From Clostridia bacterium (GTDB lineage: Bacteria; Bacillota; Clostridia; Christensenellales; DTU072), in contig JAFQOO010000007.1 in the NCBI GenBank assembly GCA_017403145.1, positions 142,889 to 206,888 on the forward strand: a stretch of DNA of 64,000 nt, given 5' to 3'. The notes below the pieces were generated by a model. It did no database searches. It was not told the DNA's origin and was given only the letters and a program-made list of their open reading frames with translations. The stretch's first letter is position 1. Each line of letters begins with the position of its first letter. This document shows, one piece after another, positions 13,820-17,173 of this stretch. The position numbers and the translations under genes are program-made.

Positions 13820-16230
13820 TACCTTTTCTCCTTTAATGCTTTAAGCTGAGAGCCAAGTGTTTTTTGTTTTTCTTTTAGGTCGTTTAAATCACGTTTTAAC
13901 GTATCGATTATCAGTTTTTTTGCAACGTCGTTGCCATCTAGCTCGGTATAAAATCTTACTATATCGTAGTCGAGCGCACCGCCATCGTTTTTTAGAGATG
14001 CTTCCATAAACTCAATAAGCTTTAGGTCGCCGGAAAGACGGAAGGTTTCTTTTGCATCCTCGTATAAACCCTTTTCCCAATATCTGATTCCCGCTTCTCG
14101 GTAGTTACCATAGCGAACGTATTTTTCGTTTATCTCTATGCGGTCGAGTGAGGCCTTGCGCTTTAGTTCGTCGTCAAGGTTGAGTGCCGTGATGCGTGCG
14201 TTCTCGTATTGACCAAGAGAAATAAACTTGGATATTCTGCTTAGGAGCTCCTCTTCTTCAACCTCTTTGATAGATAAGATGCTATCAAGATTACGTATAG
14301 CATCTTTAACGTTTAACAAAGTGAATTGATTGCGGAAAAAGTTGTTAAAAGAGGGCACTCTTCGTTCTTCGTAGACGTATACGTTGGATTTTGCGCGCGA
14401 CACCGCGACGTAGAAAAGGTTAAAGTAATAACGATAAACGCTATTCTCGTCTGCGGTCTTTCGGTTAACCGTAATGCGGTCTAGGGTTTCCCATTTGTCA
14501 TAGTTTGCCGAAAGTACGTTATATAAAATTACCGTATCTCGTTCAAGACCTTTTATTTCGGAAACGGTCAAAATTTCGCGGTTACCCAAAATTTTGCGCA
14601 TAGCAACTTTTTCGCGTAGGGAGGGAACGATTAGGGTAAAATCCCCATATTTTTTGGCTTTGAGTTCTTCAATAAAGCCTCTTCCTTCTACCATAACCGC
14701 TTGTGTTTTTAGGTCGGTATCCACGCTCACACCCTTTAGTACAAAGTTGTGCGTACCAAATTTTTGAACGTTTATTTTACCAAGCTCCTCTATGATTTCG
14801 GTAATTTTTTTGGTATTACGATAGTTATTCTGTAGCTCTTTTACGTCGGTTAAATCTTCTTGATACATCAACCTCTTCAAGTAGGAAAAACTAAAGTAAG
14901 AGGGGTTTATCATTTGTAGAGCATCACCTACAGCAAAAAGCTTTCTGGTAATTTCGCTCATCAAGTGCAAGTTGATTTCCGTCATATCTTGCACCTCGTC
15001 CAGCACGATTAAAGAATAGGTGGGGAGCTTGTTTAGGTTCTTTAGTAGAGCGCGACTTATAATATTATTGTCGGTATAACCGCGCTTTTCCATATATATT
15101 TTGTAATCACGCGCAAGGCGATAGATAACCTCACATTCGGTGCGCGTAAAAGAGTTCGCACGCTTATCCATATATTCTTCGAGCGTGAGCATATCTTTAA
15201 CAGCGCTATGCGGTTCATAGGAGCCATAAATAGCACCGTATATTTCCTTATATATGACTTCGCCCGAAAGATTTTTTAGCTTTTGAACCTGTCCTTGCAC
15301 AAAGTTTTCCTTCAAATAGGTTCTGGTAAACAGCTCCTCGCCCGAAGGCGTGGCTGTTCCGCCGAGATACTTTTTATAAAGGTCCTCTATTAGATAATAG
15401 TCGACTTTTTCTAAAAGATATTTGTGTAGCACCTTTAGCTTTTCCAAAAGCTTAGCTTCTTCATCGACCTCAAGATATATGCCAAGACGATTTTCGATAG
15501 CGGTTTTTTTATCACCGATATAGGTAACCGATTTTTCTTCCATTGATTTTATGAGAGCGCCTACGGTATCGTTGAAGGCGTTGACCTTGGCTTGAGTATC
15601 AATAAGCAAACCACGAGAAAAGGTAGAATACATAAGTCTACCGCGATACTCTCTACAGCCGGCAAAAATAATTTTATCGATACAAACGTTGGTTTTGCCA
15701 CTGCCCGCAACACCTTGAACGAGCATATTTTTGTCCTCGGTTTCCACTATTTCCTTTTGCTTTTTGGATAGCATAGGGAAGCTCGCCTTATCGGTGCCTG
15801 CTACGCGATATATCTTTTTATAGTCGCTTTCTTTAACGTTAGAATGGGCTACGCTAAGCACACCCTCAAAGTTTTTTAGAGTTTCCAAGTAGTACAAAAA
15901 CCTACCATCGTTATATAAAATTTCTTCCTCGGTCGTATGGTATGCGGTGAAAATCAAGTCGTTTTTCTTTAGAAAATCGTGCTCTAAAAATGCACCGAGC
16001 GTAAAGTAAAAATCGTGTTTACCATATAGGCTTAGCTTGAACTCCTTGCCAACCTTTTGCAACTCCTTAGTAAAAGGCATAAGGCTTTCGGCAAGCTTAG
16101 AAAGGAATAAATCGTGGGAACGTATTTTACGCACGCTCAAATCACACCTTTCCGTTTTGTATACAGAGGTGTGGGCGGAAAGCACCGTCGTGCGCGTGGA
16201 TATTGTGATTTTTTTATTATACGCACCCAT
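13819..16230 (-). CDS. SF1 UvrD/Rep-like helicase (803 aa) with a C-terminal helical (TPR-like) extension.
   Basis: Walker A GVAGSGKT lies at 15691-15714. Motif II is SLIVLDEVQDMT, motif III FAVGDALQMI, motif IV NNYRNTKKI, motif V SEIKGLERDTVILYNV and motif VI LFYVAVSRAKSNVYVY. The roughly 130-aa C-terminus is helical-repeat-like (GQYENARITALNL...GNYREAGIRYWEKGLYEDAKETF). The start at 16230 has an AAGGA upstream; the alternative Met51 has no RBS. The gene overlaps the RF-like gene by 14 nt. Confidence 0.85.
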   Translation of the reverse strand: MGAYNKKITISTRTTVLSAHTSVYKTERCDLSVRKIRSHDLFLSKLAESLMPFTKELQKVGKEFKLSLYGKHDFYFTLGAFLEHDFLKKNDLIFTAYHTTEEEILYNDGRFLYYLETLKNFEGVLSVAHSNVKESDYKKIYRVAGTDKASFPMLSKKQKEIVETEDKNMLVQGVAGSGKTNVCIDKIIFAGCREYRGRLMYSTFSRGLLIDTQAKVNAFNDTVGALIKSMEEKSVTYIGDKKTAIENRLGIYLEVDEEAKLLEKLKVLHKYLLEKVDYYLIEDLYKKYLGGTATPSGEELFTRTYLKENFVQGQVQKLKNLSGEVIYKEIYGAIYGSYEPHSAVKDMLTLEEYMDKRANSFTRTECEVIYRLARDYKIYMEKRGYTDNNIISRALLKNLNKLPTYSLIVLDEVQDMTEINLHLMSEITRKLFAVGDALQMINPSYFSFSYLKRLMYQEDLTDVKELQNNYRNTKKITEIIEELGKINVQKFGTHNFVLKGVSVDTDLKTQAVMVEGRGFIEELKAKKYGDFTLIVPSLREKVAMRKILGNREILTVSEIKGLERDTVILYNVLSANYDKWETLDRITVNRKTADENSVYRYYFNLFYVAVSRAKSNVYVYEERRVPSFNNFFRNQFTLLNVKDAIRNLDSILSIKEVEEEELLSRISKFISLGQYENARITALNLDDELKRKASLDRIEINEKYVRYGNYREAGIRYWEKGLYEDAKETFRLSGDLKLIEFMEASLKNDGGALDYDIVRFYTELDGNDVAKKLIIDTLKRDLNDLKEKQKTLGSQLKALKEKR

Positions 16231-17173
16231 TGTTTTTGTTTTCCTTTATCAGCAATGGAGAGATTATTTCGTCAAGGTTGACACCCGTTGATGCCCTAAA
16301 AGGTATAGATAAATTCAACCTTAAATCACATAGTGTTTCTTTGTCGAAATCGTACAAACGTATTCTTTCGGTGCGTGATTTTTGGTAGGCGGATAGACGT
16401 TCTTTTTTTAGTAAACCTTGTTCTTTTGCTTTGTAGTAATCGTAAAGTCTAGAGCGCAAAACAAGGTGGGCACGGTTGCGGTTTTGCAGTTGAGAACGCT
16501 CTTCTTTACAAACTACAACTATACCGCTTGGTATATGCGTTAGCCTAACGGCTGTTGCAACCTTGTTTATATTTTGACCGCCGGCACCGGAAGAATGGAA
16601 GATATCGGTTTTCAAATCTTTATCGGAGATAATCACACTTACGTCATCCATAATTGGAGTAACGGAAACCCAAACATTGGAGTTCCCAATTTTACCGCCT
16701 GTGCTATGATGAGTTCCGGTTTCGCCTTTTAGCCTAAAATATGCACCTGCTCCGTCTATAGTTAGGGATATAAATTTATCCTCCCATTCGCATATGGAGA
16801 GTTTGTATCCTTTTTGTTTTGCATAGCTAGAGTATAGCCTAAAAAGCTCGTGGAGAAAGGGTAGACTTTGGGGGTTTTCGGCACGTAATTCTATTATCGC
16901 ACCGCGTTTATCTTGTTCGTTTTTTGGCAGCAGTTCTTGGGTAAGACAGGTGTACAAAGCGTTTGTTTCTTCTTGGTCGCCTAGCTCGATTGCTATCTTG
17001 AGAGCCTCACCGAGGATATAGCTTTCTTCAAGGGAGTTTTTTTCATCGGCATATCTCAAATACAAACGATTGTCGGCAATAATTTCGGGACTTTCAAGAT
17101 ATTCCACAAGTTGCTCGTATCTTGTGGAAATCGGTTGATATCTATTAAGAAGTCCTTCTATTTTTTTATCCAT
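16217..17173 (-). CDS. Divergent class-I peptide chain release factor (RF1-family) paralog. The GGQ motif is present and the stop-codon recognition loop is deleted.
   Basis: [39 protein letters not shown] contains GGQ at 16574-16582. The C-terminus, [20 protein letters not shown], is RF1-like (compare IRTYNFPQ.RVTDHRI). Canonical RF1 has HRVQRVP.TESQGRIHTS where this protein has [11 protein letters not shown] (16679-16711). The conserved GTGG(D/E)EA is replaced by ENPQSLP. Length is 318 aa against about 355 for RF1. Confidence 0.85.
   Translation of the reverse strand: [318 protein letters not shown]

What the first reader, a model, noticed from the sequence alone, without database searches (positions are those of the whole stretch)
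16217..17173. RF1-family paralog that keeps GGQ but has lost the stop-codon recognition elements
The alignment is by eye against canonical RF1 (HRVQRVP(A/E)TESQGRIHTS(A/T)ATVAV.PE).
- This protein reads [20 protein letters not shown]. The roughly 7 residues carrying the PxT tripeptide anticodon are deleted. The His of GRIHTS, which contacts the third stop-codon base, is Gly.
- The conserved domain-2 GTGG(D/E)EA is ENPQSLP.
- DHR in the C-terminal ..RVTDHRI.. is DLR.
- The catalytic domain 3 is well conserved ([35 protein letters not shown]).

Known codon-independent GGQ factors (ArfB, PrfH) have different architectures. ArfB is about 140 aa. PrfH lacks domain 1 and pairs with RtcB. This protein is 318 aa, retains an RF1-like N-domain and is fused into an operon with a helicase.
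Basis: partly seen in the sequence, partly recalled or inferred. Interest (0 to 1): 0.75.

Follow-up and report, generated by a model that had tools for sequence, protein, structure and literature searches.

The report
Codon-blind RF1 relative with helicase partner
This gene encodes a relative of bacterial release factor 1 that keeps the peptide-releasing GGQ domain but has lost every element that reads stop codons; it belongs to a large, undescribed Clostridia family always linked to a helicase and membrane proteins, so it is probably a new kind of ribosome-rescue factor.

Summary
ORF 16217-17173(-) encodes a 318-aa PCRF+RF-1 protein. HMMER and MAFFT alignments show a 7-residue deletion removing RVQRVPxT, GRIHTS replaced by GKIGNS, a shortened and replaced alpha-5 tip, an altered switch loop and DHR replaced by DLR. 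The GGQ domain is near-canonical.

It is not a one-off. PxT-less, GGQ-positive proteins form one clade (199/200 bootstraps) beside canonical Clostridia RF1, with at least 53 clusters at 50% identity. Within the family the GGQ domain is as conserved as in true RF1, while the decoding domains have lost about half their constraint and the former decoding loop varies in length and sequence.

In five flanking contexts the gene heads, or lies next to, the same module: SF1 helicase, 237-aa coiled-coil protein, single-pass GLUG-like membrane protein and 73-aa two-TM protein. A TG-extended -10 box 6-10 nt before the ATG, with no Shine-Dalgarno sequence, is conserved, which suggests a leaderless mRNA.

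It fails the curated RF1, RF2, PrfH and ArfB tests, and no paper describes it. The best reading is a stop-codon-independent peptidyl-tRNA hydrolase working with the helicase module. Function is untested, and a canonical prfA in the same genome is inferred, not shown.

The parts
16217..17173 (-). RF1-derived, PxT-less GGQ protein (318 aa): truncated domain 1, domains 2/4 with shortened loops, intact GGQ domain 3
   Evidence: ORF. Pfam PCRF+RF-1. NCBIfam prfA 200 bits against a cut-off of 423. AF2 model pLDDT 85.7. Best Foldseek hits are ribosome-bound RF1 and mtRF1.
16574..16582 (-). GGQ catalytic motif (residues 198-200)
   Evidence: Invariant in all family members. GGQ-domain identity is 0.64 within the family against 0.69 among canonical RF1.
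16679..16711 (-). Remnant of the decoding loop (H155-S165, [11 protein letters not shown]). The 7 residues RVQRVPxT are deleted and GRIHTS is GKIGNS.
   Evidence: HMMER alignments to PDB RF1. MAFFT. Loop length is 12-21 residues in the family against 24 in canonical RF1, and the loop is hypervariable.
16862..16882 (-). Alpha-5 helix tip (A98-L104, AENPQSL), replacing GxGG(D/E)EA and 2 residues shorter
   Evidence: The tip is hypervariable across the family.
16982..16987 (-). Site of the ~26-residue deletion in domain 1 (between E63 and L64), specific to the window's subclade
16364..16396 (-). Altered switch-loop region (L260-R270; GTGDRSE is YQKSRTE with one residue fewer)
   Evidence: Identity in this segment is 0.20 within the family against 0.45 in canonical RF1.
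17180..17188 (-). TG-extended -10 box (TGaTATAAT) ending 6 nt before the ATG, with no Shine-Dalgarno sequence: predicted leaderless transcript start for the operon
   Evidence: Sequence. The same arrangement is present in L085-L095 at 34-64% protein identity. Only 2 of 39 window genes have any -10-like hexamer abutting the start, and 29 of 39 have an SD. Inferred, with no transcript data.
13819..16230 (-). SF1 (UvrD-like) helicase, 803 aa, with a novel beta-rich N-terminal domain (~1-150) and a helical-repeat C-terminal domain (~640-802). Its start overlaps the RF-like stop by 14 nt.
   Evidence: Pfam UvrD-helicase/AAA_19/UvrD_C. Walker A, DExx, GDxxQ and motifs V/VI are invariant in 43 homologs. 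AF2 pLDDT 84.9. Foldseek: UvrD/PcrA best, then Upf1-like and HelD, at ~12% identity.
13106..13819 (-). 237-aa coiled-coil protein, the most conserved member of the module
   Evidence: 49-86% identity across lineages. Only coiled-coil noise in Pfam, NCBIfam and PDB.
10866..13106 (-). Single-pass membrane protein (746 aa from the coupled ATG): conserved cytosolic N-terminal domain (FGRFPxLSL motif), one TM helix, and an extracellular region with GLUG-like repeats
   Evidence: Sequences. Sub-threshold Pfam Glug hits in orthologs.
10645..10866 (-). 73-aa hydrophobic protein with two predicted TM helices, the last gene of the module
   Evidence: Present in every lineage examined.

Best explanation
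The gene encodes a member of an undescribed, Clostridia-wide family that arose once from RF1. The family kept a fully constrained GGQ peptidyl-tRNA-hydrolase domain and lost the machinery that reads stop codons.

It most likely enters the ribosomal A site without reading a codon and hydrolyses peptidyl-tRNA on ribosomes that cannot terminate normally. That would make it a stop-codon-independent release or rescue factor. It would act together with the co-encoded SF1 helicase, which may remove or pull the mRNA or remodel the stalled complex using ATP. The conserved coiled-coil protein and the two membrane proteins may scaffold or localise the pair at the membrane. The operon appears to be transcribed as a leaderless mRNA.

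Shown here: the sequence anatomy, the fold, the pattern of selection, the single origin, the conserved gene linkage and the conserved promoter-to-start arrangement.

Inferred: catalytic activity on ribosomes, codon independence in practice, cooperation with the helicase, the nature of the substrate, leaderless transcription, and the presence of a canonical prfA elsewhere in the genome.
For: Anatomy:
- PxT, the Gln, GRIHTS and the alpha-5 tip are lost while GGQ is intact.
- The AF2 model has an RF1 fold, with the decoding loop reduced to a short hairpin.

Selection:
- GGQ-domain identity within the family is 0.64, against 0.69 in canonical RF1.
- Domain 2 is 0.32 against 0.67, domain 4 is 0.28 against 0.60, and the switch region is 0.20 against 0.45.
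- The loop is 12-21 residues and hypervariable in at least 53 clusters at 50% identity, all GGQ-positive.

Origin:
- The family is monophyletic in 199 of 200 NJ bootstraps and sits beside canonical Clostridia RF1.

Linkage:
- The same five-gene module occurs in five flanking contexts: beside aroC, L091, L093 (with a pntAB insertion), L095 (beside smc-ftsY) and L111.
- Gene junctions overlap or are tight.
- At least 10 further pairs of RF-like and helicase hits share a contig length.
- No minus-strand terminator-like site lies inside the window operon.
- Helicase ATPase motifs are invariant.

Not the housekeeping RF1:
- prfA HMM scores are 200-330 against a cut-off of 423, while canonical sisters score 474-478 and sit next to rpmE and prmC.

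Niche and precedent:
- Firmicutes lack ArfB (PMC6514570, section 2.4).
- PrfH shows that an RF-type domain 2/4 can recognise ribosomes without reading a codon (PMC12829566).
Against: - There is no functional, expression or binding data of any kind.
- No basic C-terminal tail of the ArfB or PrfH-CT type, and no small ArfA/BrfA-like helper, is present. The 73-aa protein is a membrane protein. How a stalled ribosome would be recognised is therefore unknown.
- The helicase fold is generic SF1 and closest to the DNA helicases UvrD and PcrA, so an RNA or ribosome substrate is not established.
- The two membrane proteins and their extracellular repeats have no obvious place in a ribosome-rescue pathway.
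- In L093/L094 the RF-like gene is separated from the helicase by 4.4 kb on the opposite strand, so co-transcription is not universal.
- A canonical prfA in the same genome was not demonstrated.
Confidence: 0.6

Rival explanations
1. It is a dedicated release factor for one programmed event rather than a general rescue factor. One example would be releasing or resolving nascent chains stalled during co-translational membrane insertion or secretion, possibly of the module's own large GLUG-repeat membrane protein. The coiled-coil and membrane proteins would then tether the RF-like protein and the helicase at the translocon.
For: Two of the five conserved partners are membrane proteins, and the large one has a conserved cytosolic N-terminal domain. 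The module is vertically inherited like a housekeeping cluster. In L095 it lies directly upstream of smc-ftsY, and FtsY is the SRP receptor.
Against: No stalling motif or unusual stop context was identified in the module genes. The neighbourhood to ftsY is seen in only one lineage. Nothing distinguishes this reading from general rescue at the sequence level.
Confidence: 0.15
2. The module is an anti-phage or conflict system. The helicase would sense foreign nucleic acid and the codon-blind RF-like protein would be the effector, causing premature peptide release (translation abortion) or repairing ribosomes attacked by ribotoxins, by analogy with PrfH-RtcB.
For: The helicase gives partial hits to Gabija GajB models (best E=4.3e-16, 56.6 bits) and the coiled-coil protein gives weak hits to SMC-like defence components. 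PrfH is an RF-like factor in a conflict-related repair system (PMC6514570, PMC12829566).
Against: There are no PADLOC hits for the RF-like, membrane or small proteins, and no GajA-like nuclease or RtcB ligase is nearby. The module sits in conserved core-genome positions (aroC, smc-ftsY), its tree nests consistently with flanking synteny, and it spans a wide clade. That is unlike sporadic, horizontally moving defence islands. The GajB hits cover only generic SF1 motifs.
Confidence: 0.1
3. The protein no longer acts on ribosomes as a hydrolase. It would be an adaptor or regulator of the helicase complex, with the RF fold reused for RNA or protein binding, much as some organellar RF homologs have become regulators.
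For: The decoding superdomain and switch loop, which couple ribosome recognition to GGQ placement, are poorly conserved. Part of domain 1 is deleted in the window clade.
Against: The GGQ motif and about 30 surrounding residues that in RF1 contact the peptidyl-transferase centre are invariant or nearly so across at least 53 diverged clusters. That is hard to explain without catalysis in the ribosome.
Confidence: 0.08
4. It is the organism's only RF1: a highly divergent ortholog that still terminates at UAA and UAG by an unconventional reading mechanism.
For: A canonical prfA in the same genome was not found, because it could not be searched for. No second RF gene lies in the window or within 10 kb of any family locus. 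The tree alone cannot separate a divergent ortholog from a paralog.
Against: The region that would have to read the codon differs in length (12-21 residues) and sequence between members, with no conserved motif, yet these genomes use TAA, TAG and mostly TGA stops like other bacteria. Family distances are about twice those among canonical RF1s of several phyla. Canonical sisters keep the rpmE-prmC-prfA context and the family never has it. The curated prfA model rejects all members.
Confidence: 0.05
5. It is a decaying relic or pseudogene of a duplicated prfA.
For: It shows multiple deletions and fast evolution.
Against: The reading frame is intact in more than 75 distinct sequences. The GGQ domain has canonical-level conservation. 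The operon position and the promoter-to-start arrangement are conserved across lineages at 34-40% identity.
Confidence: 0.02

Closest known systems
Bacterial release factor 1 (PrfA; TIGR00019 / PRK00591)
   Same: Same four-domain fold and PCRF+RF-1 architecture. The GGQ domain is about 61% identical. The family is phylogenetically derived from Clostridia RF1, and the N-terminal motif PEIIADN is shared with Clostridia prfA.
   Different: PxT, the Gln, GRIHTS and the alpha-5 tip are lost, and the switch loop is altered. It scores 200 bits against a cut-off of 423. It has no rpmE-prmC context. Instead it heads a helicase and membrane-protein module from a leaderless-type promoter.
PrfH (RF-H; TIGR03072), partner of the RtcB2 RNA ligase
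   Same: An RF-family GGQ factor that keeps a domain 2/4-type ribosome-recognition domain but does not read stop codons, and is encoded with a dedicated partner enzyme (PMC6514570, PMC12829566).
   Different: PrfH lacks domain 1, is about 200 aa, pairs with RtcB and spreads horizontally. This protein has domain 1, is 312-369 aa, pairs with an SF1 helicase plus three other proteins and is vertically inherited. It scores 69 bits against a cut-off of 166.65, and no RtcB is nearby.
ArfB (YaeJ) and mitochondrial ICT1 / mtRF-R (C12orf65)
   Same: They have a GGQ domain and release peptides independently of codons, and they are the closest analogues by inferred function. PDB sequence hits to C12orf65 cover only the GGQ domain.
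   Different: ArfB-type factors are about 140 aa: a GGQ domain plus a linker plus a basic C-terminal helix that probes the empty mRNA channel. This protein has no such tail and keeps domains 1, 2 and 4. It scores 42.7 bits against a cut-off of 100. ArfB is absent from Firmicutes (PMC6514570).
Vertebrate mitochondrial mtRF1
   Same: An RF1 paralog born by duplication whose codon-recognition elements were remodelled. mtRF1 on the ribosome is the second-best structural match (8oir).
   Different: mtRF1 has insertions in the alpha-5 tip and in the PxT loop (PMC3418547) and, to my knowledge, has been assigned a specific decoding role. Here the loops are deleted and hypervariable, which argues against any specific codon.
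Eukaryotic helicase-plus-release-factor surveillance pairs (Upf1 with eRF1/eRF3; Dom34/Pelota with helicases). Analogy only.
   Same: An SF1 helicase is functionally coupled to a release-factor-fold protein. Upf1-like helicases are among the structural neighbours of the partner helicase.
   Different: There is no homology between the bacterial and eukaryotic RF folds. The helicase core here is closer to UvrD/PcrA, and no interaction has been shown.

Membership tests
RF1 (prfA equivalog, TIGR00019 / NF001859) | PCRF + RF-1 domain architecture with GGQ | tested here: met
   Pfam PF03462 and PF00472. GGQ at residues 198-200.
RF1 (prfA equivalog, TIGR00019 / NF001859) | Whole-protein score at or above the curated equivalog cut-off | tested here: not met
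   200.2 bits against 423.25, and 195.2 against 400. Other family members score 222-330. Canonical controls score 474-487.
RF1 (prfA equivalog, TIGR00019 / NF001859) | PxT tripeptide with the preceding Gln, and the GRIHTS strand that read the stop codon | tested here: not met
   7-residue deletion and GKIGNS. Absent from all 28+24 family hits, present in all 92 canonical hits.
RF1 (prfA equivalog, TIGR00019 / NF001859) | Conserved alpha-5 tip GxGG(D/E)EA | tested here: not met
   AENPQS, 2 residues shorter. Hypervariable across the family.
RF1 (prfA equivalog, TIGR00019 / NF001859) | Housekeeping context with prmC (and rpmE) in Clostridia | tested here: not met
   Canonical sisters: rpsF-ssb-rpsR-rpmE-(DUF1385-PrmC)-prfA. 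No family locus has prmC within 10 kb.
RF1 (prfA equivalog, TIGR00019 / NF001859) | Termination at UAA/UAG in vivo or in vitro | not testable with these tools
   Needs release assays or complementation.
RF2 (prfB, TIGR00020) | SPF tripeptide and a score at or above the cut-off | tested here: not met
   149.6 bits against 370. The sequence contains no SPF.
PrfH (TIGR03072) | Lacks domain 1, about 200 aa | tested here: not met
   318 aa with an N-terminal helical domain. 69 bits against 166.65.
PrfH (TIGR03072) | Adjacent RtcB ligase gene | tested here: not met
   No RtcB in the Pfam annotation of any family locus.
ArfB (NF006718) | Stand-alone GGQ domain plus a basic C-terminal helix, about 140 aa | tested here: not met
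   42.7 bits against 100, matching only residues 179-212. The C-terminus ...[12 protein letters not shown] is not a basic tail.
mtRF1-type remodelled RF1 | Insertions that enlarge the alpha-5 tip and the PxT loop | tested here: not met
   Deletions, not insertions: the loop is 12-21 residues against 24. The mtRF1 features are taken from PMC3418547.
Gabija (GajA/GajB), considered for the partner helicase | GajB-type helicase next to a GajA ATPase-nuclease | tested here: not met
   Only partial GajB HMM matches of at most 56.6 bits over SF1 motifs. No GajA-like gene in any locus.
HelD (RNA-polymerase recycling SF1 ATPase), considered for the partner helicase | Specific similarity to HelD | tested here: inconclusive
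   HelD structures are among the Foldseek hits (6wvk, 8qn8) but rank below UvrD/PcrA at about 13% identity. No HelD model appears among the NCBIfam hits.

The most novel reading that the evidence does not exclude
Clostridia possess a previously unknown five-protein, membrane-associated translation-surveillance machine. In it, an ATP-driven SF1 helicase clears or remodels a stalled ribosome-mRNA complex and a codon-blind RF1 derivative then releases the nascent chain. This would be a bacterial counterpart, by convergence, of the eukaryotic helicase-plus-release-factor surveillance pairs. It would also fill the alternative-rescue niche left empty by the absence of ArfB in Firmicutes. Its leaderless first cistron would allow the factor to be made when canonical SD-dependent initiation is compromised.
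Probability: 0.25. Interest if true: 0.9.

Novelty: new variant of a known kind. Interest (0 to 1): 0.72.

Why it matters
The 2019 survey of release-factor evolution that I read (PMC6514570) recognises four bacterial class-I RF-type peptidyl hydrolases: RF1, RF2, ArfB and PrfH. This would be a fifth family. It is large (at least 53 clusters at 50% identity), ancient within Clostridia, and has a partner set not seen with any other RF-type protein.

It offers a natural experiment on what is left of RF1 when codon reading is removed. It is a candidate for alternative ribosome rescue in Clostridia, a class that includes important gut commensals and pathogens and lacks ArfB. It is also the first hint I am aware of that a bacterial helicase is coupled to a release-factor-fold protein.

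There is a practical point too. Annotation pipelines call these proteins 'peptide chain release factor 1' (JGI) or 'PCRF domain-containing protein' (NCBI). Genome-based inferences about RF1 presence, for example in studies of stop-codon reassignment, could therefore be misled by them.

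Tried and rejected

2. **Attempts to show a canonical prfA in a carrier genome.**
   - I compared longest-contig lengths between family hits and canonical hits and found no match.
   - I looked up two sister canonical RF1s (P0331, P0332). Their assemblies (GCA_964310015.1, GCA_964653635.1) differ from all carrier assemblies.
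   - The P0331 organism is distant: GC 33% and QueH about 50% identical.

3. **Idea that the 73-aa protein is an ArfA/BrfA-like helper.** Rejected, because it is a two-TM hydrophobic protein.

4. **Idea that the family is tied to loss of TGA stops or RF2.** The window has 0 TGA stops in 39 genes, but relatives carrying the family use TGA, so I rejected this as a family trait.

5. **Known defence system.** PADLOC gives only partial GajB-type matches to the helicase and coiled-coil noise.

6. **Sequence and profile searches of the partner proteins** (helicase, coiled-coil protein, membrane protein) against PDB, Pfam and NCBIfam. These returned nothing specific.

7. **Helicase fold search.** It did not discriminate a DNA substrate from an RNA substrate.

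8. **A first Biopython bootstrap run** timed out. I redid it with numpy.

9. **Literature searches** for this family, for 'PCRF domain-containing protein', and for RF-helicase operons found nothing relevant.

Full report
**1. The observation**

Pfam finds a PCRF domain (E=2.6e-15) and an RF-1 domain (E=5.1e-32).

The best solved-structure relatives by sequence are RF1 chains (1zbt, E=9e-42). RF2, PrfH and C12orf65 follow far behind.

HMMER's own alignments to three RF1 structures place a 7-residue gap exactly over RVQRVPxT. They align GKIGNS with GRIHTS, AENPQS with GxGG(D/E)EA (2 residues shorter), and DLR with DHR. MAFFT with five canonical RF1s gives the same picture.

About 26 residues are deleted from domain 1, and the switch-loop region is altered (GTGDRSE becomes YQKSRTE with one residue fewer; YNFPQ becomes YDFDK).

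The GGQ domain ([43 protein letters not shown]) is almost canonical. The window holds no other RF-like gene.

**2. It is a member of a large family, not a lone oddity**

- A search of 5.8 billion proteins found 24 close clusters of 312-334 aa at 39-100% identity. After them the hits are ordinary RF1s of 356-359 aa.
- Following the partner helicase outwards led to more distant loci whose upstream RF gene is also PxT-less but keeps a full-length domain 1.
- Searching with one of these found 28 more PxT-less, GGQ-positive proteins. The 92 canonical hits in the same list all carry both PxT and GRIHTS.
- An exhaustive HMMER profile search of 1.84 billion cluster representatives put at least 53 true family clusters (at 50% identity) among the top 150, and they continue to the bottom of the list. 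In these the segment between the conserved His and Pro is 12-21 residues instead of 24. Neither it nor the alpha-5 tip has any conserved motif.
- All members keep GGQ.
- NCBI's pipeline calls them 'PCRF domain-containing protein', while JGI calls some of them 'peptide chain release factor 1'.

**3. Origin and selection**

In a neighbour-joining tree (335 columns, Kimura distances) the PxT-less proteins are monophyletic in 199 of 200 bootstraps. They branch beside a group of canonical 361-363-aa RF1s and a Clostridiales RF1. The window's subclade, together with its 40%-identity sister, is nested deep inside (182 of 200).

Mean distance within the family is 1.20, against 0.67 among canonical RF1s from several phyla. 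NJ with long branches is a crude method, so the exact attachment point is uncertain.

Mean pairwise identity by domain:

| Region | Within the family | Among canonical RF1 |
|---|---|---|
| GGQ domain | 0.64 | 0.69 |
| Domain 2 | 0.32 | 0.67 |
| Domain 4 | 0.28 | 0.60 |
| Helix-7 / switch region | 0.20 | 0.45 |
| Domain 1 | 0.37 | 0.43 |

Purifying selection on the catalytic domain is therefore undiminished, while the decoding apparatus has been released from its ancestral constraint. This excludes a pseudogene and argues strongly for GGQ-dependent chemistry at the peptidyl-transferase centre.

**4. Structure**

An AlphaFold2 model built on 63 aligned sequences has mean pLDDT 85.7. Its best PDB matches are E. 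coli RF1 on the 70S ribosome (7m5d, E=1.6e-21), human mtRF1 on the mitoribosome (8oir), and then other RF1 and RF2 complexes.

All four domains are present. The former PxT loop is a six-residue turn between strands 153-158 and 165-173.

**5. Genomic context**

In the window the RF-like gene overlaps the start of an 803-aa SF1 helicase by 14 nt. The helicase is followed, with 1-nt overlaps, by three more genes:
- a 237-aa coiled-coil protein;
- a 746-aa single-pass membrane protein with extracellular GLUG-like repeats;
- a 73-aa protein with two TM helices.

No minus-strand terminator-like site interrupts this stretch.

The same five genes, in the same order, occur in five flanking contexts:

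| Lineage | Context |
|---|---|
| Window clade and its 40%-identity sister | Divergent from aroC |
| L091/L092 | Related but different flank |
| L093/L094 | An inverted pntAB operon separates the RF-like gene from the helicase; the RF-like gene lies downstream of pth and a LigT-like gene |
| L095-L100 (anaerobic-digester organism, 1.7-Mb contig) | Between a malic-enzyme gene and smc-ftsY |
| L111 (most basal branch of the family tree) | Unrelated flank |

At least ten further RF-like and helicase pairs share an exact longest-contig length. The linkage is therefore as old as the family.

Identity of each module protein between the window species and the other lineages compared (L085, L087, L091, L093, L095) is as follows:
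- coiled-coil protein: 49-86%;
- helicase: 47-73%;
- RF-like protein: 34-64%;
- membrane protein: 32-52%.

The helicase has invariant Walker A, DExx, GDxxQ and motif V/VI residues in 43 homologs. Its model (pLDDT 84.9) matches UvrD/PcrA best, then Upf1-like RNA helicases and HelD, all at about 12% identity. The substrate is therefore open.

PADLOC gives only partial GajB-type hits. The coiled-coil and membrane proteins have no informative homologs.

**6. A conserved leaderless-type start**

In the window a TG-extended -10 box (TGaTATAAT, 17188-17180) ends 6 nt before the ATG, and there is no Shine-Dalgarno sequence.

The same arrangement is present in L085, L086, L087, L088, L089, L091, L093 and L095. 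The hexamer is TATAAT, TATACT, TATAGT, TAGAAT or TATGAT and lies 6-10 nt before the start codon. These loci range down to 34% protein identity.

In the window only 2 of 39 genes have any -10-like hexamer in that position, and 29 of 39 have an SD. I infer that the operon's first cistron is translated from a leaderless mRNA. No transcript data exist.

The alignment of these promoters also shows that the 13-19-residue N-terminal extension called for P0021-P0024 is a start-codon mis-call.

**7. Is it a paralog?**

I could not search the carrier genomes. The one genome-collection scan was swamped by canonical RF1, and exact look-ups of two sister canonical RF1s landed in other assemblies.

The indirect case is strong:
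- (a) Carrier loci use TAG stops: 16 of 39 in the window, and present in all but one (L086) of the other carrier lineages examined. In bacteria UAG is read only by RF1's PxT-type decoding site (established knowledge).
- (b) The family's equivalent region has no conserved sequence or length.
- (c) All members fail the curated prfA model (200-330 bits against 423), which sister canonical proteins pass at 474-478.
- (d) Canonical sisters sit in rpsF-ssb-rpsR-rpmE-(DUF1385-PrmC)-prfA. No family member has prmC within 10 kb (against 15-20, 37, 38, 54, 76).

I put the sole-RF1 alternative at about 5%.

**8. Mechanism**

*Shown:* an RF1 fold with intact catalytic domain, loss and hypervariability of all codon-reading elements, a single origin, ancient linkage to an apparently active SF1 ATPase and three other proteins, and a conserved promoter-to-start arrangement.

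*Inferred:* the protein binds the A site without reading a codon and hydrolyses peptidyl-tRNA on ribosomes that cannot terminate. The helicase would supply ATP-driven remodelling, such as removing mRNA from the A site or channel or displacing the complex. The coiled-coil and membrane proteins would scaffold or localise the pair.

*Precedent:* PrfH shows that an RF-type domain 2/4 can recognise a ribosome state rather than a codon, and some PrfH proteins add a basic tail for non-stop complexes (PMC12829566). ArfB uses a tail alone. Firmicutes lack ArfB (PMC6514570).

*Weak points:* there is no tail and no small soluble helper, the helicase is UvrD-like, and the membrane proteins are unexplained.

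*Rivals:* a dedicated membrane or secretion-linked release event (0.15), a conflict system (0.10), a non-catalytic adaptor (0.08), a sole unconventional RF1 (0.05) and a relic (0.02).

**9. Comparison with known families, and novelty**

The protein fails defining tests for RF1, RF2, PrfH and ArfB (see the membership table). It differs from mtRF1 in having deletions rather than insertions.

The 2019 survey of bacterial RF-type hydrolases lists only RF1, RF2, ArfB and PrfH (PMC6514570, section 2.4). Five literature searches found nothing on this family or on an RF-helicase operon.

I rate it a new variant of a known kind. It is a new family of the class-I RF superfamily with a new partner set. 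It is not categorically new, because codon-independent GGQ factors are an established concept.

**10. Limits**

Everything functional is inference from sequence, predicted structure and gene context. The taxon is known only as uncultured Clostridia/Clostridiales MAGs. Family size is a lower bound.

Noticed in passing
window 1-64000 (all genes): None of 39 non-overlapping ORFs of at least 100 aa ends in TGA (23 TAA, 16 TAG). Reading frames are unbroken under table 11, so TGA is not a sense codon either. Relatives at 57-64% RF-like identity use TGA for about 12% of stops, which gives P of roughly 0.007 for 0 of 39. This may reflect strong TGA avoidance, or even RF2 loss, in this species. It is not a trait of the RF-like family.
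   Followed up: partly
window 30695-30771 (+): Gut-1 RNA (Rfam RF01706), 51 bits against a gathering score of 50. This fits a gut-associated organism. Its function is unknown.
   Followed up: no
L087 2560-2598, L088 8903-8941, L089 3072-3128: The gene calls for P0021-P0024 start 13-19 codons too early. The conserved TG-extended -10 box lies inside the called N-terminal extension, immediately before the internal Met (MDDY.../MDKS...) that aligns with the start of all other family members.
   Followed up: yes
L093 1258-4622 and L094 2240-5603: In this lineage the RF-like gene is detached from the helicase by an inverted pntAB operon. It lies in a co-directional run with tadA-like deaminase, pth (peptidyl-tRNA hydrolase), a Zn-dependent phospholipase-C-like gene, a LigT/2H phosphoesterase gene and a 51-aa ORF. 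This is a neighbourhood with RNA-repair and peptidyl-tRNA themes, but it could be coincidence.
   Followed up: no
L101-L110 4266-7089; L112 8212-11086: In the sister Clostridia lineages the canonical prfA is overlapped by a 583-602-aa fusion of DUF1385 with the PrmC methyltransferase, downstream of rpsF-ssb-rpsR-rpmE.
   Followed up: no
P0364 (477 aa), P0365 (481 aa): These two 'RF1' representatives ranked very high in the profile search. They are canonical RF1s with an internal tandem duplication of about 120 residues. They are most likely assembly artefacts, not fusions.
   Followed up: yes
P0253 (L095-L100): A family member seen on 111 contigs and indexed in 145 blocks of the collection, largely from anaerobic digesters. 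NCBI nr labels it as from 'Oligella ureolytica', a betaproteobacterium. Its context and relatives are clostridial, so the label is probably a binning or taxonomy error.
   Followed up: partly
window 46457 (+) start region: The only other window gene with a -10-like hexamer (TAAAAT, no TG) 6 nt before its start and no SD. It encodes a 432-aa protein at 46457-47755 and may be a second leaderless gene.
   Followed up: no
window 17245-17301 (+): The longest ORF for aroC starts at a TTG at 17245, but gene callers in identical contigs start it 19 codons later (371 aa against 390 aa). The divergent intergenic region shared with the RF-like promoter is therefore about 128 nt rather than 71 nt.
   Followed up: partly
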